Positions 6,540-37,344 of a stretch of DNA of 64,000 nt are shown here, piece after piece. The number at the start of each line of letters is the position of its first letter. Within the stretch, counting starts at the first letter, position 1. A program made the position numbers and the translations under genes. The DNA is from a plasmid, in sequence record NZ_CP103541.1; one strand, 5' to 3'. Below the pieces are notes generated by a model that saw nothing but the letters and a program-made list of their open reading frames with translations, did no database searches and was not told the DNA's origin.

Positions 6540-6552
6540 GAAGGAGACGAGA

Positions 6553-10090: not shown

Positions 10091-10336
10091 ACTCAACGGG
10101 TGATGTTCTTTAAAAATCAGGATTTATTTCAGGCTCCGGCAATACGCATTTATTTGTTCTGTCAGTCATCCGGCTGGCAGGTAATGAGAACGCAGGAACA
10201 GAAGGAGGAAAACACCGGAAAGCGTCAGATGCAGATATGAAAAAAGCAGGTCAGGGACCTGCTTAATCCACGCCGTAGAAATCGCCGCAATCGATTTTCA
10301 CGGCTTCACTAACCTGTGTCATAAGGAGTTTCATTT

Positions 10337-12833: not shown

Positions 12834-12959
12834 CTGCTGCTCTGATTCTGACTACTGCAGTGTTGTCCTGTCTGCCGGGTCGGGTAGCAGCGGCACATTG
12901 CTGCGCCGCCGCCCCCTAAGAACGGAGCGTGCGAGTTTCCCCGCACTCCGCTCAAGCCT

Positions 12960-13746: not shown

Positions 13747-13788
13747 TGAACCGCCCCGGGTTTCCTGGAGAGTGTTTTATCTGTGAAC

Positions 13789-14679
13789 TCAGGCTGCCAG
13801 ATCATCGTTTCCGATGGAAGCATAATAAGCTTTTTCTGCTTCTGCCGGAGGAGTATGGCCCAGCCTTTCCAGCAATCGTCGATTGTTATACCAGTCCACC
13901 CACGTGAGTGTGGCCAGTTCCACTTCTGCACGGTTTTTCCAGCTCTTACGGTGTATTACCTCCGCTTTGTAAAGACCATTGATGCTCTCCGCCATCGCGT
14001 TGTCATACGAGTCGCCTGTACTTCCTGTTGATGCCAGTAATCCGGCTTCCTTAAGCCGCTGTGTGTAGGCCAGCGATACATACTGAGAACCTTTATCACT
14101 GTGATGGACCGTGCCGGACGGTCGACGGGCCCATAACGCCTGCTCCAGTGCATCCAGCACGAATGTCGTTTCCATGGACGATGAGACCCGCCACCCCACG
14201 ATGTATCCGGCAAACACATCAATGATGAACGCCACATAGACGAAGCCCCGCCATGTGCTGACGTAAGTAAAATCAGCCACCCACAGCTGGTCAGGTCGTT
14301 CTGCCACGAACTGACGGTTTACGCGGTCGCCTGCGGCAACGGCTTTCCGGCTGATGGTCGTACGGACCTTTTTACCCCGGAGAACACCGGCAAGTCCCAT
14401 AACCGCCATGAGACGTGCCACAGTGCATCTGGCCACTCTGATACCTTCCCGTAACAACTGACGCCAGACTTTACGCACACCGTATACCTTGTGATTTTCA
14501 TCGTATACGCGCTGTATCTCTTTCTTCAGCCAGTCATCGCGCTGCGCACGGGCACTGCGTTTATCCGGATGATGTCGCTGTTGCTGACAGTGGTAATACG
14601 TTGACGGGGCAATATGCAGTTCGCTGCATAGCGGTCCGACCCCGTACTGCTCACGCAGCTTATCCAGCAGTGGCATCAT
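13789..14679 (-). CDS. IS629 OrfB (DDE transposase)
   Basis: 296-aa DDE-domain ORF overlapping orfA by 4 nt (the -1 frameshift arrangement of the IS3 family). Confidence 0.8.
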
Positions 14680-15002
14680 TTTTTCCAGAGGCGGTCGAAC
14701 TCCGCCTTCGCAAAATAAGCGGAAGCCTGGCGAAGGATATCGTTACTGCGGCGCAGTTCACGATTTTCACGTTCCAGCTCTTTCAGACGCTGACGTTCAG
14801 CGGTGGTGAGCCCTCCATCACCGCCCCCGGTATCCCGCTCATGCTGGCGAACCCAGACACGCAGAGTCTCCGGCGTACAGCCAATCTTTGGAGCAATGGA
14901 ACAAATTGTCGCCCATTGTGAGTCATATTCGCTCTGACTTTCCAGAACCATACGGACTGCCCGTTGACGGACTTCGGGGGAAAAACGAGTATTTTTAGTC
15001 AT
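14676..15002 (-). CDS. IS629 OrfA (transposase N-terminal, HTH)
   Basis: 108-aa ORF of IS3-family orfA type. Confidence 0.8.
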
Positions 15003-15056
15003 CCTGTTTACCTCTTTCTCAGGAAGTTTAGTCTCCAGGATTCCCGGGGCGGTTCA

Positions 15057-15940
15057 ATCAGTGGTCTGACCTCATTTTCCAGCAATTCACGGGAGCTGCC
15101 TGAACAGATGAAATCATCAGCATATCTCACATAATTCACCTGGTGCTTTGCACTGTGATAACCACTTTTCCTGAACGTTTGCATCAGTTCCTTCTCCAGT
15201 CCGTCCAGAGCCATGTTGGCGAGAACAGGGGATATGATGCCTCCCTGCGGTGTCCCGCTGTTCGTATGGTTAAACACGCCTCTTTCCATGTAACCTGCTT
15301 TCAACCATTTTTTAAGCAGTCTCCTGTCCATCGGAATATGGGAAAGCAGCCAGTCATGGCTGATGTTATCGAAACACCCTTTAATATCGCCCTCCAGTAT
15401 CCATTTGGGCGATACTTTCTGGCTCATCCGCAGAAAAATGGACTCAATGGCGTCATGCGTGCTGCGCATTGGTCTGAAACCATAGCTGTTATGGTCAGCA
15501 GTGGTCTCGGATACGGGTTCCAGAGCCAGCAGCCACAGTGCCTGCATGGCCCGGTCCCTCATTGTGGGTATGCCCAGCGGTCGCGTTTTGCCGTTTGATT
15601 TTGGGATATGTATTCGCCGTAGTGGCTGTGGCCTGTAACCACACAGATTCAGGCTGCATATTCCTTCCCATTTCTCCTTCGGTGTGTGCCATATTTTTCC
15701 GTCAATACCGGGTGTCCTTTTACCGGTATTTTCAGTTACACGCCTGACAGCCACGGCTTTGCCGGAGAATGAGCGGGTGAGGATGCGCTGTAGTTCTCTG
15801 ACCTGCCGCCATTGTTGCTGTCGGGTTGCCTTTGCAATCCGTAACTGTAGCTTTCGCACCCGGGCATGGCATGCTTTCCAGTCTATGGTGTGCCAGCCTG
15901 TCGGGTGGGGTATCGTGGACACACTGATGTGTGTATTCAT
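15057..15940 (-). pseudogene. group II intron reverse transcriptase, N-terminal part (RT domains 0-7, YADD motif)
   Basis: ORF 15008..15940 (minus) with RPLGIPTMRDRAMQ and VRYADDFI motifs, interrupted by IS629. Confidence 0.75.
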
Positions 15941-16534
15941 CTCGCTGATATCCTTTTGACTGCTTTACAGCTTTTCATGCAATTAAAGACCAGACGGAAG
16001 TCTGCCCGCTTTCGCGTCGGGGAACCTGCCCCGTATCCCGGTCATTACAACCGGGCATTTGCTTTTTCCGTCCTCCTCTGCCCGCACCGCCTACAGTGTT
16101 CCTTACGGTTCACCTGCCTGTAAGGCAGCGATACGGGTTTACCAGGTTCCGCTTAACATACAGAGGGTCAGGGCGGGTTCTGTCTCTTCACCGGGGGTCT
16201 CTGCGCCCATGTGCTCCCTGTGCGCGAGGTAGCAACCGGACCCCGTACCTTTTGGTTCAGGCCTGTCAGCATCTTTGGCCTGTTGCCGATAACGGTGTTT
16301 ATCAACAGTTCACATGTGTTAACCCTTCTGACCAGCCTTGCTCTCCTGCCACATGATGCTTGCAGCAAGGTAAAGCCCCTCACGGGGCTTTACCCGGGCT
16401 GACGCCCGGCTCTCGTTGTCCCGGGAGCTTCAGACCCCGCCGTTGCCGGCAGCGCCTGTCCCGGTAGGCTACAGCTAATGGGATAGCTGGTTTTATCAAT
16501 GTAAAACAATACGTTAAGCGACTTCCTGTCGCAC

Positions 16535-20390: not shown

Positions 20391-21401
20391 ATGTCACTTA
20401 AGGCGATTGCCACTGCACTCGGAGTTTCTGTCACCACTGTCAGTCGGGCTCTTGGAGGCTATGCAGATGTGTCAGCTTCCACCCGTGCACGGGTGGAAGC
20501 TGAAGCTCGTCGACGCGGCTACCGTCCTAATACTCAGGCAAGAAGACTCAAAACCGGTAAAACCGATGCTGTCGGTCTGGTTTATCCTGGACGTGATGTG
20601 CCATTTAACAGTGGTGTTTTTATGGATATGGTCAGTTGCATCAGCCGGGAACTTGCTCACCATGATATTGACTTACTACTGATAGCTGATGATGAGCATG
20701 CCGATTGCCACAGCTATATGCGGCTTGTTGAAAGTCGCAGGGTTGATGCTCTCATCATTGCACACACTCTGGATGACGATCCCCGTATCACACACCTTCA
20801 TAAAGCAGGTATTCCATTTCTGGCTCTTGGTCGGGTACCATCTGGTCTGCCCTGTGCGTGGTTTGACTTTGATAATCATGCCGGGACTGGACAGGCAACC
20901 CAGAAACTGATTGCTTTGGGACATAAACGTATTGCATTGTTGAGTGAAGACACTTCACATACCTATGTTATTGCAAGACGTCAGGGATGGCTTGATGCAC
21001 TGAATGAGCATGAACTGGAAGATACATGGCTGCGGCTGGTTTCTCCCACACGGCGAGCAGGATATCAGGCCGTGATGGAGTTAATGTCACTACCGATACC
21101 ACCAACAGCTATTATTACTGACAATGATCTGAGTGGAGATGGTGCTGCCATGGCGCTGCAGTTGAGCGGTCGTCTTTCAGGAAAAGCTGCGGTATCTCTG
21201 GTTGTATATGATGGTTTGCCACAGGACAGTATTATTGAGCTGGATGTAGCTGCAGTTATTCAGTCAACACGAAGCCTCGTTGGTCGCCAGATTTCCGAGA
21301 TGATATATCAGATAATTACTGATTCATCATCAAAACCACTACAGGTTGTCTGGAACCCGGTATTTTATCCGGGAAAGACGATTCATTCTCCTTGCTCCTG
21401 A
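20391..21401 (+). CDS. rafR: RafR raffinose operon repressor (LacI family)
   Basis: 336-aa LacI-family protein with N-terminal HTH MSLKAIATALGVSVTTVSRAL. Followed by rafA, rafB and rafD as in the pRSD2 raf operon. Confidence 0.75.
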   Translation: MSLKAIATALGVSVTTVSRALGGYADVSASTRARVEAEARRRGYRPNTQARRLKTGKTDAVGLVYPGRDVPFNSGVFMDMVSCISRELAHHDIDLLLIADDEHADCHSYMRLVESRRVDALIIAHTLDDDPRITHLHKAGIPFLALGRVPSGLPCAWFDFDNHAGTGQATQKLIALGHKRIALLSEDTSHTYVIARRQGWLDALNEHELEDTWLRLVSPTRRAGYQAVMELMSLPIPPTAIITDNDLSGDGAAMALQLSGRLSGKAAVSLVVYDGLPQDSIIELDVAAVIQSTRSLVGRQISEMIYQIITDSSSKPLQVVWNPVFYPGKTIHSPCS

Positions 21402-21496
21402 TTTTTTTATCCAGCTCACATATCCGAAACGTTTTGGTTGATACCCGAAACGTTTCGGATCAACAGTAAGGCATCCCTGAGAAAGGAGAATGTCTT

Positions 21497-23623
21497 ATGG
21501 TTTCAAAGTACTGCAGACTGAGCAGTCCTCGCTCTGATTTAATTATTAAAACCCATCCACATGCAGAAATTATCTGGTGGGGCTCTGCACTGAAACATTT
21601 CTCACCGGATGACTGTGCCAGCCTGGAAAGACCGGTTGCGAATGGTCGTCTGGATATTGATACGCCACTGACACTGATGGCTGAAAATGCCCTGGGACTT
21701 TTTAGCTCTCCGGGACTGGAAGGACACAGGAATGGGCTGGATTCATCTCCTGTTTTTTATACAGTTGACGTGGAACATACCGAAAACACTCTGAGACTTA
21801 CCAGTGAAGATTCGGTAGCCGGCCTGCGTCTGGTCAGCGAGCTGGTGATGACGCCATCAGGAATTCTGAAAGTTCGTCATGCACTGACCAACCTCAGAGA
21901 GGGGGACTGGCAGATAAATCGTTTCGCCATCACTTTACCTTTAGCGGAGCGTGCGGAAGAAGTCATGGCTTTTCACGGACGCTGGACTCGTGAATTTCAG
22001 CCGCACAGGGTACGTCTCACTCATGATGCTTTTGTTCTGGAAAATCGCAGAGGGCGGACATCTCATGAGCATTTTCCGGCGCTGATTGTCGGCACGCCAG
22101 GCTTCTCGGAACAACAGGGAGAGGTATGGGCTGTGCATCTGGGGTGGAGTGGAAATCACCGTATGAGATGTGAGGCAAAAACTGACGGCAGGCGTTACGT
22201 TCAGGCTGAGGCTCTGTGGATGCCGGGTGAGAAGGCTCTCAGGAAGAATGAAACCCTGTACACCCCGTGGCTATATGCCTGCCACTCTGCGGATGGCCTG
22301 AATGGAATGAGTCAGCAATACCATCGTTTTTTGCGTGATGAAATTATCCGTTTCCCTGAGCAAAAACCCCGCCCCGTACATCTCAATACCTGGGAAGGTA
22401 TTTATTTCAATCACAATCCTGATTACATCATGCAGATGGCTGAGCGTGCAGCAGCACTGGGCGTTGAACGTTTCATTATTGATGATGGCTGGTTTAAAGG
22501 ACGTAACGATGACCGCGCGGCTCTGGGCGACTGGTATACCGATGAACAGAAATACCCGAACGGGCTGATGCCGGTTATTAAACATGTGAAATCTCTCGGT
22601 ATGGAATTTGGCATATGGGTTGAGCCGGAAATGATTAACCCGGATTCTGACCTGTTTCGTCTTCATCCTGACTGGGTATTGTCAATGCCTGGATATTCCC
22701 AGCCAACCGGAAGATATCAGTATGTTCTTAACCTGAATATTCCTGAGGCCTTTGCTTACATTTATGAACGTTTCTCATGGTTACTGGGAGAACATCCGGT
22801 TGATTATGTGAAATGGGACATGAATCGTGAGCTTGTACAGGCAGGGCATGAAGGCCGTGCGGCAGCAGATGCACAGACCCGTCAGTTCTATCGATTGCTT
22901 GATCTCCTCCGTGAACGTTTTCCACATGTTGAGTTTGAGTCCTGTGCTTCCGGTGGGGGGCGTATTGACTTCGAAGTCCTGAAACGCACACACCGGTTCT
23001 GGGCATCTGACAATAATGATGCCCTGGAGCGCTGCACCATACAACGTGGCATGAGTTACTTTTTCCCTCCTGAGGTGATGGGGGCACATATTGGCCATCG
23101 CCGCTGCCATGCAACTTTCCGACAGCACAGCATCGCTTTTCGTGGGCTGACAGCATTGTTCGGCCATATGGGGCTGGAGCTGGATCCGGTGGCCGCAGAT
23201 GCGAAGGAATCTGACGGTTATCGCCGGTATGCCTTGCTCTATAAAGAATGGCGACAACTGATTCATACAGGTGTTCTCTGGCGTGTGGATATGCCAGATC
23301 CTTCGATACAGGTTCAGGGAGTCGTCAGCCCTGATCAGTCTCAGGCACTTTTTATGATCAGCCAGCTTGCAATGCCGGATTACACCTTACCAGGCATACT
23401 TCGTTTTCCCGGTCTGGCGGCGGAAGTGCGTTACCGGCTTCGGGTTATTGATCACCCGGACCTCCAGGTGGTCGGTGAAGGCGGTCATACCATGCGCAAA
23501 TTACCTGTCTGGATGAATCAGAGCCTTGAGGCCAGTGGTGAATGGCTGGCACAGGGAGGGATTCAGCTCCCCGTACTGGATCCGGAGAGTGCGATTTTGA
23601 TAGCACTTGAAAGAGCTGTGTGA
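21497..23623 (+). CDS. rafA: alpha-galactosidase RafA (GH36)
   Basis: 708-aa protein. RBS aaggag lies 7 nt before ATG 21497. Confidence 0.8.
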   Translation: MVSKYCRLSSPRSDLIIKTHPHAEIIWWGSALKHFSPDDCASLERPVANGRLDIDTPLTLMAENALGLFSSPGLEGHRNGLDSSPVFYTVDVEHTENTLRLTSEDSVAGLRLVSELVMTPSGILKVRHALTNLREGDWQINRFAITLPLAERAEEVMAFHGRWTREFQPHRVRLTHDAFVLENRRGRTSHEHFPALIVGTPGFSEQQGEVWAVHLGWSGNHRMRCEAKTDGRRYVQAEALWMPGEKALRKNETLYTPWLYACHSADGLNGMSQQYHRFLRDEIIRFPEQKPRPVHLNTWEGIYFNHNPDYIMQMAERAAALGVERFIIDDGWFKGRNDDRAALGDWYTDEQKYPNGLMPVIKHVKSLGMEFGIWVEPEMINPDSDLFRLHPDWVLSMPGYSQPTGRYQYVLNLNIPEAFAYIYERFSWLLGEHPVDYVKWDMNRELVQAGHEGRAAADAQTRQFYRLLDLLRERFPHVEFESCASGGGRIDFEVLKRTHRFWASDNNDALERCTIQRGMSYFFPPEVMGAHIGHRRCHATFRQHSIAFRGLTALFGHMGLELDPVAADAKESDGYRRYALLYKEWRQLIHTGVLWRVDMPDPSIQVQGVVSPDQSQALFMISQLAMPDYTLPGILRFPGLAAEVRYRLRVIDHPDLQVVGEGGHTMRKLPVWMNQSLEASGEWLAQGGIQLPVLDPESAILIALERAV

Positions 23624-23685
23624 AGAGAGGTACGGAGCCTCAGCTCCGTCCTGTTTCTCAATATTATCCCGTGAGGGTAAGAATA

Positions 23686-24963
23686 ATGAATTCTGCAAGT
23701 ACGCATAAAAATCCCGATTTCTGGATTTTCGGTCTGTTCTTCTTTCTCTACTTTTTCATCATGGCAACCTGTTTTCCGTTTTTGCCTGTATGGCTGTCCG
23801 ATGTGGTCGGGCTGAGTAAAACGGATACAGGTATAGTCTTTTCATGTCTTTCTCTGTTTGCCATCAGTTTCCAGCCATTGCTTGGGGTCATATCAGATCG
23901 CCTGGGACTGAAAAAAAACCTGATCTGGAGTATCAGCCTGTTACTGGTATTTTTCGCCCCCTTTTTTTTATATGTATTTGCGCCCCTGCTGCGCTTCAAT
24001 ATCTGGGCAGGCGCACTGACTGGCGGTGTTTTTATTGGTTTTGTGTTTTCTGCAGGTGCCGGAGCTATTGAAGCTTATATAGAGCGGGTCAGTCGCAGTC
24101 GTGGATTTGAATACGGTAAAGCGAGGATGTTCGGGTGTCTGGGCTGGGCGTTATGTGCGACTATGGCTGGAATGCTTTTTAATGTCGATCCTTCTCTGGT
24201 TTTCTGGATGGGGTCAGGAGGCGCATTATTGTTGCTTCTTCTGTTGTTTCTGGCGCGCCCCAGTACCAGCCAGACGGCAATGGTTATGAATACACTGGGT
24301 GCCAATTCTTCCCTGATTTCGACCAGAATGGTCTTCAGCCTGTTTCGCATGCGTCAGATGTGGATGTTTGTTCTCTACACGATTGGTGTGGCCTGTGTCT
24401 ATGATGTATTTGATCAGCAGTTTGCCACATTTTTTCGTTCATTCTTTGACACTCCTCAGGCAGGAATAAAAGCATTCGGATTTGCTACCACTGCGGGGGA
24501 GATTTGTAATGCCATTATCATGTTCTGTACACCATGGATAATTCATCGCATTGGTGCCAAAAATACCCTGCTTGTTGCGGGGGGAATTATGACCATCCGC
24601 ATTACCGGTTCTGCTTTTGCCACCACCGCGACAGAAGTGGTGATTCTGAAAATGCTTCACGCTCTTGAAGTTCCATTTTTGCTGGTTGGGGCGTTCAAAT
24701 ATATTACGGCAGTGTTTGACACCCGACTGTCAGCGACCGTTTATTTAATAGGTTTTCAGTTTTCCAAACAACTTGCTGCAATACTTCTCTCTACCTTTGC
24801 CGGCCACCTGTATGATCGTATGGGATTCCAGAATACGTATTTTGTGCTCGGGATGATTGCTCTGACTGTTACCGTGATATCAGCTTTCACGCTGAGTTCT
24901 TCCCGCGGGAGCGTACACCCTTCTGTAGAAAAAGCCCCTGCAGCGCATTCGGAGATTAACTGA
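23686..24963 (+). CDS. rafB: raffinose permease RafB (LacY-family MFS)
   Basis: LacY-like N-terminus NPDFWIFGLFFFLYFFIMATCFPFLPVWL. Start taken at ATG 23686 (track start 23620). Confidence 0.8.
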   Translation: MNSASTHKNPDFWIFGLFFFLYFFIMATCFPFLPVWLSDVVGLSKTDTGIVFSCLSLFAISFQPLLGVISDRLGLKKNLIWSISLLLVFFAPFFLYVFAPLLRFNIWAGALTGGVFIGFVFSAGAGAIEAYIERVSRSRGFEYGKARMFGCLGWALCATMAGMLFNVDPSLVFWMGSGGALLLLLLLFLARPSTSQTAMVMNTLGANSSLISTRMVFSLFRMRQMWMFVLYTIGVACVYDVFDQQFATFFRSFFDTPQAGIKAFGFATTAGEICNAIIMFCTPWIIHRIGAKNTLLVAGGIMTIRITGSAFATTATEVVILKMLHALEVPFLLVGAFKYITAVFDTRLSATVYLIGFQFSKQLAAILLSTFAGHLYDRMGFQNTYFVLGMIALTVTVISAFTLSSSRGSVHPSVEKAPAAHSEIN

Positions 24964-26393
24964 TGAAACAGCGTCTTGCTTTGGCACAGTCCGCCCTTGA
25001 AAAACTTTGCGCACGTCGTGGTAATGCCTGGTACCCGATTTTTCATCTGGCTCCACCTGCCGGCTGGATGAATGATCCAAATGGCCTTATTTACTTCAAT
25101 GGGCGTTACCATGCGTTCTTCCAGCATCATCCTGCAAGCGCATATCAGGGGCCAATGCACTGGGGGCATGCCACCAGTACCGACATGTTGCACTGGCAAC
25201 ACGAACCTGTCGCGCTGGCACCCGGAGATAAATATGATCGTGATGGCTGTTTTTCAGGGAGTGCCGTGGATGATGATGGCGTGCTATCACTTATTTATAC
25301 TGGTCATATTTGTCTCGAAGATCGTGGTAATGACAGCATTATCCGTGAAGTACAGTGTCTGGCTACCAGTCATGATGGTATTCACTTTGAGAAGCAGGGC
25401 TGTGTGCTGACACCTCCGGAAGGTATCATGCATTTCCGTGATCCCAAAGTCTGGCACGAAGAAGGCTCCTGGTGGATGGTCATTGGTGCCCGGGACGCTT
25501 CTGACAATGGGCAAGTTCTGTTGTATCGCGGGACATCTTTGCGGGACTGGCATCTGGAGCATGTTCTCGCTCATTCCGCAGCCGGAGAAAGTTATATGTG
25601 GGAATGCCCCGATTTCTTCAGGTGTGGTAATTTTCACTGGCTGATGTTCTCACCACAGGGGATGACCCCTTCCGGTTATCGGTTCCGTAACCTTTTTCAG
25701 AGCGGTGTGTTGGCAGGGAGCTGGAAGCCTGGTTCTGTCTTTGCGCTGAAAGGGGGATTTGAAGAGCTGGATTATGGTCATGACTTTTATGCTCCACAGT
25801 CCATGCTGGCTGAGGACGGCAGGCGTATCATTATGGCATGGATGAATATGTGGGATTCACCCGTGCCCACCCGCAGTGAAGCCTGGGCAGGATGTCTGAC
25901 GCTGCCCAGAGAGGTTTTTGAGCGCGATGGCCGGCTGTGCCAGCGACCTGTGCGTGAAGTCGAATCTCTGCGCAGAAAATGCCAGCCATTATCCCCTGTA
26001 AGGTTACAGGGTTTGCAATTACTGACCGAAAATGTACAGGCCGCAGAATTATTGGTGACGTGGCATACGGTTGACAGTCATGCGGAGCACTATGGCGTCC
26101 GCCTTGGAGACGGTCTGCGACTTTATGTGGATAATCAGGCCGGACGACTGGTACTGTGGCGCTATTACCCTGAGGAAGGGCTGGATGGTTACCGCAGTGT
26201 TGAACTTCCTGATACAGAATATCTGACTCTTCGTATTTTCCTGGATCGTTCATCTGTTGAAGTGTTTGTTAACGATGGTGAGGCAACCTTATCAAGTCGT
26301 ATTTATCCGCAAGCGGACTCGAGACAATTATCGTTATATGCCGCTCATGGCGATGCGATATTAACTAATGGCACTTTATGGATGCTGACCTGA
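24963..26393 (+). CDS. rafD: sucrose-6/raffinose invertase RafD (GH32)
   Basis: GH32 motifs WMNDPNG and RDP. Confidence 0.8.
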   Translation: MKQRLALAQSALEKLCARRGNAWYPIFHLAPPAGWMNDPNGLIYFNGRYHAFFQHHPASAYQGPMHWGHATSTDMLHWQHEPVALAPGDKYDRDGCFSGSAVDDDGVLSLIYTGHICLEDRGNDSIIREVQCLATSHDGIHFEKQGCVLTPPEGIMHFRDPKVWHEEGSWWMVIGARDASDNGQVLLYRGTSLRDWHLEHVLAHSAAGESYMWECPDFFRCGNFHWLMFSPQGMTPSGYRFRNLFQSGVLAGSWKPGSVFALKGGFEELDYGHDFYAPQSMLAEDGRRIIMAWMNMWDSPVPTRSEAWAGCLTLPREVFERDGRLCQRPVREVESLRRKCQPLSPVRLQGLQLLTENVQAAELLVTWHTVDSHAEHYGVRLGDGLRLYVDNQAGRLVLWRYYPEEGLDGYRSVELPDTEYLTLRIFLDRSSVEVFVNDGEATLSSRIYPQADSRQLSLYAAHGDAILTNGTLWMLT

Positions 26394-26587
26394 GATATAT
26401 CGATATCAGTATTTTTTTTGATATTATCTGTCATTACTTTGCCAGTACACATTAATTATCTTTGCTGTGTGCTTTTGGTAATGTGTTGCGATTATATATA
26501 CCAGTCTGGTGAAGAGTATGAATGGTATTTTGTGTTGATACAGAGAATATAAGAGTACCCACATTTGTTTTTATTTAAGGGGGTAAA

Positions 26588-27982
26588 ATGAATAAGTTAC
26601 TCTTGGGTTTGTCTGTTTTTTTATTACTGGAATACAATGCGTGTGCAGCAAAAACAGGGGGGCTAACGCTTGAACAAAGAATGGCATTGCTGGAAGAACG
26701 CCTGGAAGCTGCAGAAAAAAGGGCGGAAAAAGCAGAAAGAATGTTAAAAAGTTTTGATACAGAACAACATTCTGAAATACGTCAAATTAGTTCAGAGCAG
26801 AATAAAAAAGCTGCTAACAGCTATGCAGTAGTTGAGTCAACAAAAGAAAAAACATCTTCTCCAGGTTTTCTGCTCTCTGGTTACAATGATTTGAAGTTTT
26901 ATGGTGATGTGGAGTTTAATATAGATGCTGCCAGTAAACCCGGTCAGTTAGTAATGATAAGTTCCGGGGCGAACAGTGAGTCAGTGAATGAACGGTGGGA
27001 CCTTAATGGCCGTATTCTATTAGGTTTTGACGGTACCCGTAAGCTTGATAATGGTTATTTCGCTGGATTTTCAGCACAACCACTGGCGGATATGCACGGT
27101 TCAGTGAATATTGATGATGCATTATTCTTTTTTGGAAAAGATGACGAGTGGAAAGTGAAAGTCGGTCGTTTTGAAGCTTACGATATGTTCCCTCTAAATC
27201 AGGATACTTTCATTGAGTATTCCGGTAATACAGCTAACGATATTTATGCTGATGGCCGTGGTTATATCTATATGATGAAAGAGGGACGCGGTCGTTCTGA
27301 CGCTGGTGGTAATTTCCTCATCAGTAAACAACTCGATAACTGGTATTTTGAGTTAAACACGTTACTTGAAGACGGAACATCTTTATATAATAACGGTAAT
27401 TATCATGGACGATATATGGAGCAGCAGAAAAATGTCGCTTATCTGCGCCCGGTAATTGCCTGGTCGCCAACGGAAGAATTCACAGTCTCCGCAGCGATGG
27501 AAGCAAACGTGGTAAAAAATGCTTATGGCTATACCGATAATAAGGGGAATTTTGTCGATCAGTCCAATCGTTCCGGTTATGGTATTAGCATGACATGGAA
27601 CGATCTGAAAACAGATCCGGAAAATGGCATCGTGGTTACTCTTAATACCGCCTATTTGGATGCCAGTAATGAGAAAGATTTCACTGCCAGTATTAATGCT
27701 CTGTGGAAACGTTTCGAACTGGGTTATATCTACGCACATAATAAGATTGATGAATTTAGTGGTGTCGTGTGTAATAATGGTTGCTGGATTGATGGTGAAG
27801 GAATATACAACATTCACACCATTCATGCATCTTATCAGTTTGCTAATGTGATGGATATGGAGAACTTTAATATTTACCTCGGGGCTTATTACTCAATTCT
27901 GGATAGTAACTGTAGATATAGTAATTGTGACATTACCGATGATCGTTACGGTGCCCGATTACGTTTCAAATACTTTTTTTGA
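26588..27982 (+). CDS. rafY: raffinose glycoporin RafY (ScrY/LamB-like)
   Basis: Signal peptide, coiled-coil N-terminal extension, C-terminal Phe (beta-barrel signature). Confidence 0.7.
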   Translation: MNKLLLGLSVFLLLEYNACAAKTGGLTLEQRMALLEERLEAAEKRAEKAERMLKSFDTEQHSEIRQISSEQNKKAANSYAVVESTKEKTSSPGFLLSGYNDLKFYGDVEFNIDAASKPGQLVMISSGANSESVNERWDLNGRILLGFDGTRKLDNGYFAGFSAQPLADMHGSVNIDDALFFFGKDDEWKVKVGRFEAYDMFPLNQDTFIEYSGNTANDIYADGRGYIYMMKEGRGRSDAGGNFLISKQLDNWYFELNTLLEDGTSLYNNGNYHGRYMEQQKNVAYLRPVIAWSPTEEFTVSAAMEANVVKNAYGYTDNKGNFVDQSNRSGYGISMTWNDLKTDPENGIVVTLNTAYLDASNEKDFTASINALWKRFELGYIYAHNKIDEFSGVVCNNGCWIDGEGIYNIHTIHASYQFANVMDMENFNIYLGAYYSILDSNCRYSNCDITDDRYGARLRFKYFF

Positions 27983-28388
27983 TGCATAGTAACAAAGTAT
28001 TGTTCCACACTTACATTAACGCGTTTTTCGGGTACACCATCGGTGAGCATACGAATAATCGCTGTCTGTCGATGGTTGATTTAATTTATTGCGCAACGAG
28101 CCAGCTACCGGGAACTGGCTCTGAAGTTGCGTCAGGTCACGAAGTACTGCCCGGGGAATAATGCCAGACTAACTCTGACCAGTGCCACTTGACGTCTCCG
28201 CCAGCGCAGCGGAGGCAAATAGTACTGTCAGACCGTGGGCTTATCCCCGCGCGGAGCGGTACAATGACGGTGATAACCGTCAACCATACTGCGAAATATT
28301 TGCCCCGGCGTGTCACCCAGAGTGCACAGATAGGGTGATGCTGCCAACTTACTGATTTAGTGTATGATGGTGTTTTTGAGGTGCTCCA

Positions 28389-28664
28389 GTGGCTTCTGTT
28401 TCTATCAGCTGTCCCTCCTGTTCAGCTACTGACGGGGTGGTGCGTAACGGCAAAAGCACCGCCGGACATCAGCGCTATCTCTGCTCTCACTGCCGTAAAA
28501 CATGGCAACTGCAGTTCACTTACACCGCTTCTCAACCCGGTACGCACCAGAAAATCATTGATATGGCCATGAATGGCGTTGGATGCCGGGCAACTGCCCG
28601 CATTATGGGCGTTGGCCTCAACACGATTTTACGTCACTTAAAAAACTCAGGCCGCAGTCGGTAA
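28389..28664 (+). CDS. insA: IS1 InsA
   Basis: [32 protein letters not shown], recognised as IS1 InsA. Confidence 0.85.
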
Positions 28665-29082
28665 CCTCGCGCATACAGCCGGGGACGTCATCGTCTGCGC
28701 GGAAATGGACGAACAGTGGGGCTATGTCGGGGCTAAATCGCGCCAGCGCTGGCTGTTTTACGCGTATGACAGTCTCCGGAAGACGGTTGTTGCGCACGTA
28801 TTCGGTGAACGCACTATGGCGACGCTGGGGCGTCTTATGAGCCTGCTGTCACCCTTTGACGTGGTGATATGGATGACGGATGGCTGGCCGCTGTATGAAT
28901 CCCGCCTGAAGGGAAAGCTGCACGTAATCAGCAAGCGATATACGCAGCGAATTGAGCGGCATAACCTGAATCTGAGGCAGCACCTGGCACGGCTGGGACG
29001 GAAGTCGCTGTCGTTCTCAAAATCGGTGGAGCTGCATGACAAAGTCATTGGGCATTATCTGAACATAAAACACTATCAATAA
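28583..29082 (+). CDS. insB: IS1 InsB (expressed as an InsAB' frameshift fusion)
   Basis: Two overlapping track ORFs (28583..28840 and 28705..29082) matching IS1 InsB. Confidence 0.75.
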
Positions 29083-29097
29083 GTTGGAGTCATTACC

Positions 29098-29721
29098 ATG
29101 TTAAAGATAATAAAACAACACAAATTTGCTTTTCTTTTCACAGCACTGCTGAGCACCTTCTTTCTCAATATGTTTCCACCGAGCGCTGCAGGGTACGAGT
29201 TGAATACCGTGCTGCAGATTGTGGCGGGCGTTAATCTGTTGCAGCGTCGCTATCAGGTCGTTTCATTTATTGTGTTGCTGATAATGTTTGTCACCACACA
29301 CTGGCTGCATCCCGTCAATGCCATGATACAGCTGTACTACGGGAGTTATCTGGTCTTTTTCATCATTCTGTCAGTGATTGTGTTCCGCCAGGTGATTTTC
29401 TCCGCCCGGATAAACACAGAGTCCATCTGCGCTGCACTAAGTGGCTTTCTGCTTATTGGCTATATAGGGTTTTTCATGTTTTCTGCGATAGAAAATCATA
29501 TGCCTGGCGCGTTCCGTGGACTGTCAAATGATGAGTTGCAGATGATGAATGAACTTTTTTATTATTCTTTTATCAGTATTCTGACCGTAGGCTATGGCGA
29601 TATTGTTGCCGTCAGCTGGCCGGCTCGTAATGCCACTATTCTGGTTATTCTCACGGGCTATATTTACTCACTGGTCTTTATTGCCCGCATCGTCAGTGGA
29701 TTTTCGGTCTCAGAAAAATAA
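29098..29721 (+). CDS. putative small K+ channel-family membrane protein (TVGYGD selectivity-filter motif)
   Basis: 207-aa hydrophobic protein with the filter signature TVGYGD. The ATG directly abuts the IS1 end, so the N-terminus may be truncated. Confidence 0.5.
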   Translation: MLKIIKQHKFAFLFTALLSTFFLNMFPPSAAGYELNTVLQIVAGVNLLQRRYQVVSFIVLLIMFVTTHWLHPVNAMIQLYYGSYLVFFIILSVIVFRQVIFSARINTESICAALSGFLLIGYIGFFMFSAIENHMPGAFRGLSNDELQMMNELFYYSFISILTVGYGDIVAVSWPARNATILVILTGYIYSLVFIARIVSGFSVSEK

Positions 29722-29817
29722 CTCTTTGTACCAGCTACCAGTCGGCTGTACTACGGGTTCCTGAGTCCGGCAAAACGGCATCGTGTATCGTTCCGGTCGA
29801 GTAGGCAGCCTAACCCG

Positions 29818-30080
29818 ACCACTGAAAACGTCGCGGCAGAGCTGAAGCTGCTGACGGAAAATTGCTGCGATAGTGGGATTTCTCTGGGAGGTGGATCGCC
29901 GCACGACTGCGCGAAAGGAATTGCGTTGGTCGCAACCAATGGTGGAAATATTCGTGATTATGAAGGTGTTGATCGTTCCGCGAAACCGCTGCTGCCAATG
30001 ATTGCGATTAACACCACTGCGGGTACGGCTTCGGAAATGACCCGTTTCTGTATTATGGGGTCAGTTTGGATATCGGAACT
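29818..30080 (+). pseudogene. internal fragment of an iron-containing alcohol dehydrogenase
   Basis: Translation ...[36 protein letters not shown]...[15 protein letters not shown] is the Fe-ADH metal/NAD region, without its N- or C-terminus. Confidence 0.55.
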
Positions 30081-30345
30081 TATTGTACTATAAGGGCTTC
30101 CCCGGCATGTCAACGCCGGTTTTATAGTTTCTGTCTGCTCGTCAGTAAAATAAAGGGGAGAGACTGCGGTACTATAAACGGCCATGATGAATCGTTATCG
30201 ATTCGGGCCCTGATGAAAGACGCGCGTGAGGTTCTTGTTCGTTAAGCGGATACGTATATCCTGTACAATAGCCAGATAGGCCTCACGGGGTCTAACCCTT
30301 TTTCATCAACGAGTTGCAGGTCAGATGGTTATACTGCTTTGTGCT

Positions 30346-30714
30346 TTAGCTGGCTGAGTACAGCCTGAAATCATCACCGTAATGCAACGATGCCCAGCAC
30401 AGCCTCGCGTTTTTGGCGGCGATGGCTACAACAGCCCGCCAGTACCCCCTGCGCTCAACCAACGTACAAACCCAACGGCTGAATGAGTCAGTCCTTTTCT
30501 CTGCACCAATCAAAACCGAACGGGCCCCCTGAACCAGAAGCGTTCGCAGATATGAATCGCCCGCTTTCGTTATTCTGCCAAGCTTTGATTTTCCGCCACT
30601 GCTGTACTGTGATGGTGTAAGTCCCAGCCAGGCTGCCAGTTGGCGTCCATTCTTAAAATCATGGCGTTGACAAGGCAAGTATGGCAGCCAGAGAGGCCGG
30701 TTGCGTATTTTCAT
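30346..30714 (-). pseudogene. IS110-family transposase, C-terminal fragment only
   Basis: FKNGRQLAAWLGLTPSQYSSGGKSKLGRITKAGDSYLRTLL is the conserved IS110/IS116/IS902 C-terminal domain. The N-terminal domain is absent. Confidence 0.55.
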
Positions 30715-30735: not shown

Positions 30736-31017
30736 ATTTAAAAACGGTTCTGTGAAAGTGACACGAACCGATCTCCATCGATGTTACTCACCGATCTCCT
30801 TCACGGTAATACGCACCGGTCACGCTGTCCGTGAGATGGAGCGGTGGATGGTGCCGAACAAACTCCGGGAGGCAGCGTGATGCGGCAACAATCACACAGA
30901 TTACCCGTAAACAGTCTGAATGAGCGGGTTATTTTCAGGAAAAGTGAGTGTGGTCAGCGTGCAGGGATATGGGCTATGATGTGCCCGGCGCTTGAGGCTT
31001 TCTGCCTCATGACGTGA
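30736..31017 (+). pseudogene. psiA: probable psiA 3' remnant (open frame entering from the truncation point and ending ...CPALEAFCLMT)
   Basis: Position immediately upstream of the hok/flmA promoter, as in F. The open frame begins abruptly at the island boundary. Identity is inferred, not verified. Confidence 0.4.
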
Positions 31018-31131
31018 AGGTGGTTTGTTACCGTGTTGTGTGGCAGAAGGACAAAAGCCCCGTAGTTAATTTTTCATTAACCCATGTACTGCACCCATTT
31101 TGTTGGACGATGAAATGGAATAGCCCCTAAT

Positions 31132-31653
31132 ATGTCAAAGCCAAAATACCCTTTTGAAAAGCGCCTTGAAGTCGTGAATCACTACTTCACAACTGATGAT
31201 GGTTACAGGATCATCTCGGCACGTTTTGGTGTCCCCCGAACCCAGGTCAGGACATGGGTTGCCCTCTATGAAAAACATGGAGAAAAAGGTTTAATTCCCA
31301 AACCTAAAGGCGTTAGTGCTGATCCAGAGTTGCGTATTAAGGTCGTGAAAGCTGTGATCGAGCAGCACATGTCCCTTAATCAGGCTGCTGCTCACTTTAT
31401 GCTTGCTGGTAGTGGTTCTGTAGCCAGGTGGCTGAAGGTCTATGAAGAGCGCGGAGAAGCTGGTTTACGCGCGCTCAAGATTGGCACCAAAAGAAACATT
31501 GCAATATCAGTTGATCCAGAAAAAGCGGCATCAGCATTGGAGCTGTCAAAAGACCGACGCATTGAGGATCTTGAAAGGCAAGTTCGATTTCTTGAAACGC
31601 GGCTTATGTATCTAAAAAAGCTGAAAGCCTTAGCTCATCCCACGAAAAAGTGA
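31132..31653 (+). CDS. insJ: IS150 InsJ (OrfA)
   Basis: MSKPKYPFEKRLEVVNHYFTTDDGYRIISARFGV, recognised as IS150 InsJ. Confidence 0.85.
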   Translation: MSKPKYPFEKRLEVVNHYFTTDDGYRIISARFGVPRTQVRTWVALYEKHGEKGLIPKPKGVSADPELRIKVVKAVIEQHMSLNQAAAHFMLAGSGSVARWLKVYEERGEAGLRALKIGTKRNIAISVDPEKAASALELSKDRRIEDLERQVRFLETRLMYLKKLKALAHPTKK

Positions 31654-32501
31654 AAGTACTCAACGAGCTAAGGCAGTTTTATCCTCTTGATGAGCTTCTC
31701 AGGGCTGCGGAGATACCGCGCAGTACGTTTTATTATCATCTAAAGGCTCTCAGCAAGCCTGACAAGTATGCGGACGTTAAAAAGCGTATTAGTGAGATTT
31801 ATCACGAGAATAGAGGCCGATACGGATACCGTAGGGTAACGCTGTCTCTTCATCGAGAAGGGAAACAGATTAACCATAAAGCTGTTCAGCGCCTGATGGG
31901 AACCCTCTCACTTAAAGCAGCGATTAAGGTCAAGCGATACCGCTCTTACAGAGGAGAGGTAGGGCAAACCGCCCCTAATGTTCTCCAAAGAGATTTCAAG
32001 GCTACGCGGCCAAACGAGAAGTGGGTTACCGATGTTACTGAATTTGCAGTCAATGGGCGCAAGCTGTATTTGTCTCCAGTAATAGATCTCTTCAACAACG
32101 AAGTTATTTCTTACAGCCTTTCGGAAAGACCAGTGATGAACATGGTTGAGAATATGCTCGATCAGGCATTCAAAAAGCTTAATCCTCACGAGCATCCTGT
32201 TCTGCACTCTGACCAGGGATGGCAGTATCGTATGAGAAGATATCAAAATATCCTTAAAGAACATGGTATTAAACAAAGCATGTCCAGAAAAGGCAATTGT
32301 CTGGATAATGCTGTGGTGGAGTGTTTCTTTGGAACCTTAAAGTCGGAGTGTTTTTATCTTGATGAGTTCAGTAATATAAGCGAACTGAAGGATGCTGTTA
32401 CGGAATATATTGAATACTACAACAGCAGAAGAATTAGCCTGAAATTAAAAGGTCTGACTCCAATTGAATATCGGAATCAGACCTATATGCCTCGTGTTTA
32501 A
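31650..32501 (+). CDS. insK: IS150 InsK (OrfB, DDE transposase)
   Basis: 283-aa DDE ORF overlapping insJ. Confidence 0.85.
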
Positions 32502-32542
32502 CTGTCCAACTTTTTGGGGTCAGTACACCACGAGGCCCCTGC

Positions 32543-32755
32543 ATGCTTAGACAACATCAGGATAGCCTCTTACCGCGCTTTGCGCAAGGAGAAGAAGGCC
32601 ATGAAACTACCACGCAGCTCTCTTGTCTGGTGTGTGTTGATCGTGTGTCTCACACTGTTGATATTCACTTATCTGACACGAAAATCGCTGTGCGAGATTC
32701 GTTACAGAGACGGATACAGGGAGGTGGCGGCTTTCATGGCTTACGAATCCGGTAA
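32543..32755 (+). CDS. mok: Mok (modulator of killing) reading frame overlapping hok
   Basis: 70-aa [24 protein letters not shown] in the expected position relative to hok. Confidence 0.5.
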
Positions 32756-32759
32756 GTAG
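32601..32759 (+). CDS. hok: Hok-family membrane toxin (52 aa; flmA/hok)
   Basis: [52 protein letters not shown] is a near-exact match to Hok. The fbi/3' fold-back region follows (to about 32880). Confidence 0.9.
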
Positions 32760-33099
32760 CAACCTGGAGGCGGGCGCAGGCCCGCCTTTTCAGGGCTGAT
32801 GCTGGTCTGACTGCACTGAAGCGCCTTTATAAAGGGGTTGCTGGTTCGCCGGTGGCCCCTTTCTCCTTGCTGGCATTGTACGGGCATGAACAACCAGACT
32901 GCCAGGAAGGCCATTTCCCTCCGGGAACGGGGATGAACGTGCGCCTGCGGCGCCCGTTCTTTTCCCCCGCCTTCTCTGTTTATGACCTGTCAGAAATCAC
33001 ATCACCTTCCCTTTGATTATTCTCTTTTTCCTCCTGTTCTGACTCTGATTACTGCTGCCCTGATTATTGTCTGTTTTGTTGTTCTCCTGCTTATGCCTT

Positions 33100-36506: not shown

Positions 36507-36611
36507 AGTGAAATAAATTTTGACTTTGTTCAAATATCATGGTTTTTTATGGTTCAAACTGATGACAATAATCAGAATAATTAGTATATTGATTATGTGG
36601 TTAATGCCACG

Positions 36612-36690
36612 TTAAAAATTGAAACTGAAAATCGCCGATGCAGGGAGCAGCCACTCCCTGCATCGACTGTCCATAGAATCCTTAGAGGAG
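36612..36690 (-). ncRNA. finP: FinP antisense RNA (complementary to the traJ leader and RBS)
   Basis: Minus-strand stem-loop cgatgcagggagtggctgctccctgcatcg followed by a T-rich run (intrinsic terminator), opposite the traJ RBS. Exact ends are inferred. Confidence 0.5.
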
Positions 36691-36695
36691 GTTCC

Positions 36696-37344
36696 TATGT
36701 GTGCGATGGATCGTAGAGAAAGAGCACTCATCAGTCAATTGCATTTCCCTCATAGTCTTGGAGAGGCTATTTCGTTTTTAAAATATCCAGTATGTGTCCG
36801 CTTCGAGGATGGTTCTTTTATTCAGGAAAATAACCGCTTTGAAAAACTTATCAGATCGTCATTTAATTCATGTGATGAATGGTTTGATAGTTTAACGTTG
36901 GAATGTAAATTACAGTTATCCAGAGCAGAGATTGAATCATGCTCTTCAGTTTATGGTGTAAATTGTAATAATGACATATTACTTAATAATATGTTATGGA
37001 GTGTGATCATAGAAAGTGTTATCACACCATGCGGCTATTTCTTTATCTGGAGATTTATTTGGGTAGCAAATGATAATCTGTCATCGTTTGTTGTGTCTAA
37101 ATACACCAATGAATTAATTGTACTATCTGATGAATATGTAGGCATTGAGCCATATCTGATAGGGTTTAGCCATCATTATTCATCAGCAAAGATGAACATC
37201 ACTGTGTCTAAATCAAAGAAGAAAACCATGAAATTATTTAAACGACATGGATTTAGTTCTAGAGATCTCTGGTTGGATGAAATGATTAGAACGGAAAAGA
37301 TACTTCCTTTATATGCTAAAGTAAAAGAAATATTGGGAAGATAG
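36696..37344 (+). CDS. traJ: TraJ transfer activator
   Basis: RBS gaggagg before ATG 36696. 216 aa, low GC, position between traM and traY. Confidence 0.75.

What the first reader, a model, noticed from the sequence alone, without database searches (positions are those of the whole stretch)
30736..32759. hok/sok (flm) addiction locus split by IS150 with a CCA target duplication; psiA reduced to a 3' remnant
IS150 sits between ...ttttcattaacc(ca) and ccacgagg..., about 15 bp upstream of mok. The hok promoter and leader (30960-31084) and the sok promoter region are now 1.4 kb away from the mok/hok coding part. hok is intact (52 aa) but probably silent, or read from an IS150 outward promoter without Sok control. 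Immediately upstream, an open frame ending ...CPALEAFCLMT enters from the island boundary, consistent with a psiA 3' end.
Basis: partly seen in the sequence, partly recalled or inferred. Interest (0 to 1): 0.65.

Follow-up and report, generated by a model that had tools for sequence, protein, structure and literature searches.

The report
IS150 splits a plasmid hok/sok locus
A mobile element (IS150) has landed inside the control region of a plasmid "addiction" toxin gene (hok/sok), at the exact base where it lands in most other hok genes of E. coli. This is a real but ordinary case of a partly known insertion hot spot.

Summary
The core observation holds. A 1443-bp IS150, 100% identical to the K-12 copy, lies at 31085-32527 with a CCA duplication. 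Removing it restores a sequence 100% identical to uninterrupted IncF plasmids and 97.8% identical to F flm. hok (52 aa, identical to F Hok) and mok are intact.

Two details are wrong:
- The Sok promoter and the first 25 nt of Sok stay on the mok/hok side. The IS bisects the sok gene, one base upstream of the mok Shine-Dalgarno sequence.
- The psiA remnant is 30816-30880, in a different frame from the cited CPALEAFCLMT ORF.

The insertion is not a one-off. IS150 sits in the same register (3-bp duplication, then Y-GAGG) in plasmid hok alleles and in chromosomal hokA, hokB, hokC, hokE and a cysH-iap hok. At least 1938 of 5926 IS150 copies in 5426 complete E. coli genomes lie there. K-12 hokA::IS150, the trg/mokB hot spot and hok-linked insertion hot spots are already published.

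Likely consequence (inferred): post-segregational killing is lost, while Hok stays silent. Folding predicts that IS150's right end masks the mok SD in read-through RNA and gives Sok a substitute 3' hairpin. vapBC, ccdAB and sopAB in the same window provide backup maintenance.

The parts
30816..30880 (+). psiA 3' remnant (last 20 codons plus stop, GHAVREMERWMVPNKLREAA*). Homology to the F-type leading region starts at 30816.
   Evidence: Translation compared with the intact PsiA of CP057513. blastn to F and to pIP1206.
30951..30980 (+). hok promoter: -35 TGGTCA, 18-nt spacer, -10 TATGAT.
   Evidence: Consensus scan. The -10 TATGAT is the mapped R1 hok -10 box (PMC9841398).
30987..31084 (+). 5' 98 nt of the hok mRNA leader, now detached. 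It holds tac (GGCGCUU, 30987-30993) and the ucb anti-SD (about 31057-31062).
   Evidence: Rfam RF01794 model positions 1-82. R1 numbering from PMC9841398. Predicted ucb-SD pairing in the restored leader has P=0.98.
31047..31084 (-). Detached 3' part of the sok gene (3' arm of the Sok stem-loop and U-tail terminator). The 3' end is placed by homology to the R1 Sok 3' end.
   Evidence: Sok ends taken from the primer sequences in PMC1635323. Fold of the restored Sok.
31082..31084 (.). Left copy of the CCA target-site duplication.
31085..32527 (+). IS150 (IS3 family), 1443 bp, same direction as hok. insA 31132-31653, A6G frameshift site 31614-31620, insB 31650-32501.
   Evidence: 100% identity to K-12 IS150. 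ORFs. Pfam HTH_28 and rve domains.
32450..32484 (-). 15-bp hairpin followed by UUUAAUUU on the antisense strand of the IS150 right end. Candidate substitute terminator for transcripts from the Sok promoter.
   Evidence: Terminator-like scan. Fold of the chimeric RNA. Function is inferred.
32487..32494 (+). IS150 segment GCCTCGTG, the perfect complement of CACGAGGC (32529-32536) that contains the mok SD.
   Evidence: Read from the sequence. Predicted pairing in sense read-through RNA and in antisense Sok-IS150 RNA.
32528..32530 (.). Right copy of the CCA target-site duplication (R1 positions +101 to +103).
32528..32552 (-). 5' 25 nt of Sok RNA (start G at 32552). It includes the 11-nt single-stranded tail and the complement of the mok SD and AUG. 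It is still joined to its promoter.
   Evidence: Mapped from R1 Sok (64 nt, 11-nt tail; primer sequences in PMC1635323) onto the R1-type allele (L006) and this allele.
32559..32587 (-). Sok promoter: -35 TTGCGC (32587..32582), 17-nt spacer, -10 TATCCT (32564..32559). This stretch is identical to the R1-type allele.
   Evidence: Read from the sequence. PMC9841398 states that the Sok promoter mutation lies in dcb, downstream of the mok SD.
32532..32535 (+). mok Shine-Dalgarno GAGG (R1 G105-G108), 4 nt right of the IS end.
   Evidence: R1 numbering from PMC9841398. The offset to the hok AUG is 69 nt, as in R1.
32543..32755 (+). mok, 70 aa, intact.
   Evidence: ORF list. Pfam DUF5431, 131.8 bits.
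32601..32759 (+). hok (flmA-type), 52 aa, intact.
   Evidence: Pfam HOK_GEF, 74.8 bits. 52/52 identical to F Hok and 51/52 to the R1-type Hok.
32760..32825 (+). hok mRNA 3' UTR. It ends in fbi (AAGCGCC, 32819-32825), which is complementary to tac.
   Evidence: Complementarity shown. A full-length mRNA of 398 nt for R1 is recalled from the R1 literature, and the 39-nt 3' trimming is stated in PMC1635323.

Best explanation
Shown: this is the flm-type hok/mok/sok type I toxin-antitoxin locus of an IncF (FIA/FIC) NDM-5-type plasmid, interrupted by one canonical IS150. The IS lies between R1 positions +103 and +104, one base upstream of the mok Shine-Dalgarno sequence, in the same direction as hok, with a CCA duplication. 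On the left remain the hok promoter, tac, the ucb anti-SD and the 3' stem and terminator of Sok. On the right remain the Sok promoter, the first 25 nt of Sok, the mok SD, mok, hok and fbi. The site is a sequence-specific and strongly orientation-biased IS150 hot spot shared by hok loci in general. The 3-bp duplication is always followed by Y-GAGG, the mok SD.

Inferred consequences:
1. The normal 398-nt hok mRNA, with its stable and inert tac-fbi-closed form, can no longer be made. The mRNA reservoir needed for post-segregational killing is therefore gone.
2. Transcripts that read out of IS150 into mok probably have the mok SD masked by an 8-bp helix with the IS150 segment GCCUCGUG.
3. The Sok promoter now makes a chimeric RNA of about 110 nt. 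This RNA keeps the target-recognition tail and its complementarity to the mok initiation region, and it may end at an IS150 hairpin.
4. Hok therefore stays silent, and the insertion is harmless to the host.
5. Plasmid maintenance falls to vapBC, ccdAB and sopAB in the same window.
For: Structure:
- IS150 boundaries, terminal repeats and duplication. 100% identity to the K-12 IS150.
- Exact empty site in at least 40 plasmids, and in pIP1206 with the same left context. 97.8% identity to F flm.
- Identical interrupted arrangement in 9 plasmid records at 100% and 2 more at 99.4-99.6%, all over the full 2901-base query.
- The Rfam sok model is split: model positions 1-82 lie left of the IS and 83-157 lie right. 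The intact control scores 92.6 bits.

Map:
- mok SD G105/A106, mok AUG 116-118, hok AUG 174-176 and the -10 TATGAT come from PMC9841398.
- Sok is 64 nt with an 11-nt tail, and its ends are fixed by primer sequences in PMC1635323.

Hot spot:
- The same register and orientation were read in a diverged plasmid allele, the R1-type allele, hokB, hokA, hokC, hokE, the cysH-iap hok and the pNDM33-1 hok. Duplications differ between sites, and three IS150 sequence variants are involved.
- The forward junction is found in 1056 records for plasmid-type hok plus hokB and 882 for hokA, out of 5926 IS150 right ends. The reverse junction of the plasmid type is found in only 2 records.
- A non-hok site in aphA shows the same NNN|TGAGGCC arrangement.
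- Literature: the trg/mokB IS150 hot spot in mutation-accumulation lines (PMC5289635); IS150 insertions next to hokC, hokE and mokB in evolution experiments (PMC5419217); hok/sok near insertion hot spots (bioRxiv 10.1101/527788).

Functional inference:
- Folds of the antisense chimera and of the sense read-through RNA.
- No plus-strand promoter-like site near the IS150 right end.
- vapBC, ccdAB and sopAB lie in the window.
Against: - No expression data exist. All RNA consequences rest on thermodynamic folding and simple consensus scans.
- The tail after the IS150 antisense hairpin (UUUAAUUU) is a weak terminator signal.
- No plus-strand terminator was found inside IS150. A 1.8-kb read-through mRNA from the hok promoter, carrying tac, ucb and fbi, cannot be excluded.
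- hok and mok remain intact in every interrupted locus examined. This fits very recent insertion, but it also fits some retained function.
- In one forward hokA allele (L011) the SD is not predicted to pair with the IS segment.
- Record counts are not counts of independent events, because many genomes are clonally related.
Confidence: 0.8

Rival explanations
1. The locus still works as an addiction module. The hok promoter reads through the whole IS150 to give a 1.8-kb mRNA that retains tac, ucb, mok/hok and fbi. The chimeric Sok provides the unstable antidote.
For: No plus-strand terminator-like site lies inside IS150. tac and fbi are both intact and complementary. The Sok promoter and tail are retained. 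hok and mok are intact in all interrupted loci seen.
Against: 1443 nt of translated sequence now separates ucb from the mok SD. Ribosomes on insA/insB would disrupt the long-range folds on which the system depends (PMC9841398). The hok promoter is described as weak (PMC1635323). The stability of the chimeric Sok is unknown, and it would need to be short-lived for killing to occur.
Confidence: 0.1
2. hok is transcribed from an outward promoter in the IS150 right end and escapes Sok control.
For: The mok SD and AUG lie only 4-15 nt beyond the IS end, and the native anti-SD (ucb) is gone.
Against: No sigma-70-like site faces outward at the right end. The Sok promoter and the 25 nt complementary to the mok initiation region remain in cis. 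Unrepressed Hok kills even from a single chromosomal copy (PMC9841398), yet this arrangement persists in over a thousand records. The SD is predicted to be masked by IS150 sequence.
Confidence: 0.03
3. The recurrence reflects selection for knocking out hok loci, or inheritance of a few old insertions. It does not reflect target-site preference of IS150.
For: Durrant et al. suggested adaptive disruption. Many genomes in the collection are clonal, for example ST131. The forward bias could come from survival of non-toxic arrangements.
Against: The register is identical to the base in at least 9 non-identical hok loci, with different duplications (CCA, AAC, AAG, ACC, CCC) and three IS150 variants. 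The hot spot is also seen in mutation-accumulation lines, where selection is minimal (PMC5289635). The same motif is present at a non-hok site. Selection for inactivation alone would accept many positions.
Confidence: 0.12

Closest known systems
F plasmid flm locus (flmA/flmB/flmC, i.e. hok/sok/mok of the F leading region), NC_002483
   Same: 97.8% DNA identity over 1140 nt across the restored site. Hok is 52/52 identical. It has the same position between psiA and the DUF932/SLT/traM genes.
   Different: F has no IS150 and keeps a full psiA. Here the locus is split, and ssb-psiB-psiA is replaced by a raf-like sugar operon plus an IS110-family remnant.
R1 parB hok/mok/sok (the experimentally mapped reference)
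   Same: All mapped landmarks transfer by direct alignment: -10 TATGAT, tac GGCGCUU, ucb, mok SD, mok AUG, Sok promoter and start, hok AUG, fbi. Hok is 51/52 identical. An R1-type allele (NZ_CP107185) carries IS150 at the same CCA.
   Different: The leader is 5 nt shorter here. The locus is interrupted, so it cannot produce the mapped hok mRNA or the 64-nt Sok.
E. coli K-12 hokA/mokA/sokA::IS150 (b4455, b4647, b4614)
   Same: The same IS (100% identical) lies in the same leader region of a hok locus, splitting sok from mok/hok. RefSeq annotates mokA and sokA as pseudogenes.
   Different: The K-12 copy is in the opposite orientation and has no duplication. About 40 nt, including the mok SD, the mok start and the Sok -10 box, are deleted. 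Other strains carry IS150 at hokA in the forward orientation with an AAG duplication.
IS150 hot spot between trg and mokB in E. coli B mutation-accumulation and evolution lines
   Same: Recurrent IS150 insertion immediately upstream of a mok gene (PMC5289635; PMC5419217). A natural hokB example read here has the duplication AAC followed by CGAGG.
   Different: Those reports concern chromosomal loci in one laboratory lineage. In the text I read, they do not state the base-exact register, the orientation or the link to plasmid hok.

Membership tests
[quoted passage not shown] | Hok toxin of about 50 aa with the Hok/Gef domain | tested here: met
   PF01848, 74.8 bits. Identical to F Hok.
[quoted passage not shown] | Overlapping mok reading frame with its own SD, starting upstream of hok | tested here: met
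   70-aa ORF at 32543-32755, PF17496, 131.8 bits. GAGG lies 7 nt upstream of the ATG. Spacing to hok is identical to R1.
[quoted passage not shown] | Contiguous hok mRNA leader (promoter, tac, ucb) joined to mok/hok | tested here: not met
   1443 bp of IS150 separates ucb (about 31057-31062) from the mok SD (32532). The Rfam model is split, compared with 92.6 bits for the intact control.
[quoted passage not shown] | Intact cis-encoded Sok antisense RNA gene (promoter, 5' tail, stem-loop and terminator) | tested here: not met
   The promoter and nt 1-25 lie right of the IS. The remaining 35-38 nt lie left of it.
[quoted passage not shown] | 3' fbi element complementary to the 5' tac | tested here: met
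   GGCGCUU at 30987-30993 against AAGCGCC at 32819-32825. The two are no longer on one normal transcript.
[quoted passage not shown] | Post-segregational killing or plasmid stabilisation activity | not testable with these tools
   Requires a plasmid-loss assay.
IS150 (IS3 family) | 1443-bp element with imperfect terminal inverted repeats | tested here: met
   1443/1443 identity to the K-12 IS150. Terminal repeats aligned.
IS150 (IS3 family) | insA and insB reading frames with an A6G -1 frameshift site, an HTH domain and a DDE (rve) domain | tested here: met
   ORFs 31132-31653 and 31650-32501. AAAAAAG at 31614-31620. Pfam HTH_28 and rve.
IS150 (IS3 family) | Short (3-4 bp) target-site duplication and an identifiable empty site | tested here: met
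   CCA on both sides. The restored site is 100% identical to many plasmids.
psiA (plasmid SOS inhibition protein A) | Full-length 239-aa reading frame | tested here: not met
   Only the last 20 codons remain (30816-30880).

The most novel reading that the evidence does not exclude
IS150 recognises the conserved mok ribosome-binding motif (NNN|YGAGGC) as a specific, oriented target. This would make hok leaders its main natural landing site in E. coli. In the forward orientation the arrangement would be self-neutralising. The IS150 right end supplies a substitute anti-SD (GCCUCGUG) that silences mok/hok on read-through RNA. It also supplies a stem plus hairpin that turns the truncated Sok into a stable chimeric antisense RNA. 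That RNA would also run antisense to the 3' end of the transposase mRNA. Under this reading the IS gains a safe harbour rather than merely breaking a gene.
Probability: 0.2. Interest if true: 0.55.

Novelty: new member of a known kind. Interest (0 to 1): 0.3.

Why it matters
For this plasmid, a toxin-antitoxin screen that looks only for an intact hok ORF would count the leading-region hok/sok module as present, but it is probably not a working addiction system. Stability of this NDM-5 IncF backbone more likely rests on vapBC, ccdAB and sopAB.

More generally, about a third or more of all IS150 copies in complete E. coli genomes sit at one base-exact site in hok leaders. Parallel IS150 hits at hok loci in evolution experiments should therefore be read first as target preference, not as evidence of adaptation. 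If the predicted chimeric Sok and the substitute anti-SD are real, they would explain why this insertion is tolerated and why one orientation dominates.

Tried and rejected
- **IR-targeted insertion (IS911-style).** I compared the hok leader with the IS150 ends.
  - An 8-10 nt match (CACGAGGC(AT)) to a subterminal IRR segment reached p of about 0.004 in 2 of 6 alleles. That does not survive 24 tests, and the segment is not shared with IRL.
  - The left flank shows no significant similarity to IRR or IRL (p 0.13-0.99). Rejected as an explanation of the hot spot.
- **Outward promoter at the IS150 right end.** The consensus scan found none.
Rejected by translation.
- **Reverse orientation tolerated only when the transposase or the Sok promoter is disabled.**
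  - K-12 (Sok -10 deleted) and ST131 hokA (insB frameshift) fit.
  - The IncI2 copy has a fused, presumably active InsAB, and pNDM5_020007 has an intact IS.
  - Four cases are too few, so this is left open.
- **Look-ups that failed.** AP001918 and KY749247 are not in the collections. No supplement text is held for PMC9841398. An R1-type allele from NZ_CP107185, together with published primer sequences, was used instead.
- **Literature.** Searches found no paper in the library that links IS150 to plasmid hok or psiA, or that gives an IS150 target consensus.
Full report
**What is in the sequence**

Window 31085-32527 is a 1443-bp IS150. It starts TGTACTGCACCC and ends GGGGTCAGTACA, and it carries insA (31132-31653) and insB (31650-32501) with an AAAAAAG slippery site at 31614-31620. 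It is 1443/1443 identical to the IS150 of E. coli K-12. CCA is present on both sides (31082-31084 and 32528-32530).

Removing the IS and one CCA gives a 639-nt sequence that matches at least 40 listed plasmids at 100% in a single piece. One of them, pIP1206, shares the whole left-hand context. The F plasmid matches at 97.8% over 1140 nt without interruption.

The interrupted arrangement covers the whole 2901-base query in 11 plasmid records, 9 at 100% identity and 2 at 99.4-99.6%. The annotation coordinates of one of them, p_dm702b_NDM5, coincide with the window over at least 50 kb. The insertion is therefore real, precisely bounded and not an assembly artefact. It is the only IS150 copy and the only hok locus in the window.

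**Mapping the hok/sok parts**

I placed the locus on the experimentally mapped R1 system using two papers.

- Le Rhun et al. (PMC9841398) give these landmarks:
  - the hok -10 box TATGAT;
  - tac positions G4-T6;
  - the ucb anti-SD at about 70-74;
  - the mok SD at G105/A106;
  - the mok AUG at 116-118;
  - the hok AUG at 174-176;
  - the stop codon at 330-332.
- They also state that the Sok-promoter mutation lies in dcb, downstream of the mok SD.
- Faridani et al. (PMC1635323) state that Sok is 64 nt with an 11-nt 5' tail, and they give primers that fix both of its ends.

All of these sequences are found in an R1-type allele (NZ_CP107185) and transfer to the window by direct alignment. The resulting map is:

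| Feature | Window coordinates |
|---|---|
| hok -10 box | 30975-30980 |
| hok mRNA start | 30987 |
| ucb (anti-SD) | about 31057-31062 |
| mok SD (GAGG) | 32532-32535 |
| mok | 32543-32755 |
| hok | 32601-32759 |
| fbi (AAGCGCC) | 32819-32825 |
| Sok promoter, minus strand (TTGCGC-17-TATCCT) | 32587..32559 |
| Sok start | 32552 |
| Sok 3' end, by homology | about 31047 |

The IS lies between R1 positions +103 and +104, one base upstream of the mok SD.

The Rfam sok model (RF01794, which is drawn on the hok-leader strand) shows the split directly. Model positions 1-82 align left of the IS and positions 83-157 align right of it. The uninterrupted control scores 92.6 bits as one hit.

- The hok promoter, tac and ucb are indeed separated from mok/hok.
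- The sok promoter is not separated. It remains beside mok, and the sok gene itself is cut after nt 25. The target-recognition tail and the complement of the mok SD and AUG stay with the promoter. The 3' stem and terminator are carried to the far side.
- A psiA remnant exists, but it is 30816-30880 (GHAVREMERWMVPNKLREAA*). The ORF ending CPALEAFCLMT is in another frame, runs across the hok promoter and start, and has no family match.
- The psiA truncation is older than the IS, because pIP1206 has the truncation without IS150.

**The site is a hot spot**

A query made of the IS150 right end joined to the mok flank is covered at 80% or more in 1056 records from 946 of 5426 complete E. coli genomes. 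I read the junctions in a sample of them. IS150 has the same direction as hok in all of the following:

| Locus | Junction (3-bp duplication, then flank) |
|---|---|
| This window | CCA, then CGAGG |
| Diverged plasmid allele | CCA or CCCA, then CGAGG |
| R1-type allele | CCA, then CGAGG |
| pNDM33-1 hok | ACC, then CGAGG |
| Chromosomal hokB | AAC, then CGAGG |
| hokA, two alleles | AAG, then TGAGG |
| hokC | ACC, then CGAGG |
| hokE | CCC, then TGGGG |
| hok between cysH and iap | ACC, then TGAGG |

The register is identical to the base in each case: a 3-bp duplication, one pyrimidine, then the mok SD. Three IS150 sequence variants are involved, and the duplications differ, so these are separate events.

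- **Near-site variants.** A TTC duplication lies 11 nt upstream in one plasmid. In another plasmid the IS has no duplication and most of the leader is deleted.
- **Reverse orientation.** Reverse insertions exist but are rare for plasmid hok, with 2 records against 1056. One of them is in the same backbone as the window, with an ACC duplication 2 nt away, so it is an independent event.
- **hokA.** At hokA both orientations occur at the same AAG. The K-12 copy is reversed and has lost about 40 nt, including the mok SD and the Sok -10 box.
- **Overall share.** The forward hokA junction is found in 882 genomes, and there are 5926 IS150 right ends in total. At least a third of all IS150 copies in these genomes therefore lie at this site.
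- **Spot check of other copies.** Of six hits that had looked like plain IS150 copies, four were in hok leaders. One, in aphA, had AGA followed by TGAGGCC. One, in hyf, had no motif.

**What is already known**

- RefSeq annotates K-12 mokA and sokA as pseudogenes flanking IS150.
- Shewaramani et al. called trg/mokB an IS150 hot spot in mutation-accumulation lines (PMC5289635).
- Finn et al. listed IS150 insertions next to hokC, hokE and mokB (PMC5419217).
- Durrant et al. found four E. coli hok homologues near mobile-element insertion hot spots (bioRxiv 10.1101/527788).
- I found no paper in the library that describes the plasmid case, the base-exact register or a target motif.

**How it probably works (inferred)**

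The native system needs a stable and inert full-length hok mRNA. That mRNA is closed by tac-fbi pairing and has the mok SD held by ucb. It also needs an unstable Sok (PMC9841398; PMC1635323). With 1443 bp between ucb and the SD, that mRNA cannot form, so the reservoir behind post-segregational killing should be lost.

Hok is unlikely to be let loose, for three reasons.

1. No outward promoter-like site was found at the IS end.
2. IS150 carries GCCTCGTG at 32487-32494, the exact complement of CACGAGGC (32529-32536), which contains the mok SD.
   - In folds of read-through RNA the SD pairs with this segment in both the minimum-energy and centroid structures.
   - The pairing probability is about 1.0 here and in four other forward loci. 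It is 0.66-0.95 in one hokA allele and absent in another. It is mixed for reverse insertions.
3. A transcript from the Sok promoter is predicted to keep its first 16 nt unpaired. It then forms a stem using the same 8-bp complementarity, followed by a 15-bp hairpin (32484..32450) and UUUAAUUU.

These are predictions only. vapBC, ccdAB and sopAB in the window would cover plasmid maintenance.

**Cause of the hot spot**

This is unresolved. Similarity of the target to the IS150 ends was tested and is not significant. The shared feature is the motif NNN|YGAGGC, which every hok locus must keep because it is the mok ribosome-binding site and one arm of the Sok-target stem. The orientation bias could reflect asymmetric target recognition, or it could reflect survival of the non-toxic arrangement.

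**Verdict**

Two details need correction: the sok promoter side and the psiA frame. The event is one ordinary instance of a partly documented IS150 hot spot in hok leaders.

Noticed in passing
window 20391-30714: The ssb-psiB-psiA part of the F-type leading region is replaced by a raffinose-type sugar operon (LacI-family regulator, alpha-galactosidase, MFS transporter, GH32 hydrolase, carbohydrate porin). This is followed by an ion-channel gene and a C-terminal remnant of an IS110-family transposase (30346-30714, minus strand, PF02371). pIP1206 has the same junction.
   Followed up: partly
window 12879-16490 (minus strand): Rfam finds group II intron domain hits at 16341-16490 (D1-D4) and 12879-12955 (Intron_gpII), about 3.6 kb apart. 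An ALIL pseudoknot (an IS3-family frameshift element) lies at 14605-14721 between them. This may be an intron carrying or interrupted by another element.
   Followed up: no
window 524-7261: vapBC (524-1167), ccdAB (1727-2252), repE and sopAB are annotated in the 100%-identical plasmid. They give redundant maintenance systems beside the broken hok/sok.
   Followed up: partly
window 32487-32494 and 32529-32536: There is an 8-bp perfect inverted repeat between an IS150 subterminal segment (GCCTCGTG, the end of insB) and the flank that holds the mok SD (CACGAGGC). It is 10 bp in the R1-type allele. Whether this is chance or is linked to the orientation bias is unknown.
   Followed up: partly
L013 (NZ_CP144929 IncI2 plasmid) and L014 (NZ_CP030337, hokA): Two reverse-oriented IS150 copies at hok leaders are 1442 bp long. 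The IncI2 copy lacks one A of the A6G frameshift run, which would fuse InsA and InsB in frame. The chromosomal hokA copy has a 1-nt deletion in insB and is annotated as a pseudogene.
   Followed up: partly
L007 (NZ_JCAPTM010000002): IS150 is joined directly to hok mRNA position +6 on the left and to TTAACCACCACGAGG on the right, with no duplication. Most of the hok leader has been deleted next to the IS.
   Followed up: partly
L020 (NZ_AP027800, aphA): A non-hok IS150 copy has the right-hand flank AGA TGAGGCC. This is the same 3 nt plus YGAGGC arrangement as in hok leaders, and it suggests a general IS150 target motif.
   Followed up: partly
window 10241-10342 and 36595-36703: Rfam gathering-level hits to AS-pc01 (antisense to pHK01_035) and to the traJ 5' UTR / FinP pair. 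These are ordinary for IncF plasmids.
   Followed up: no
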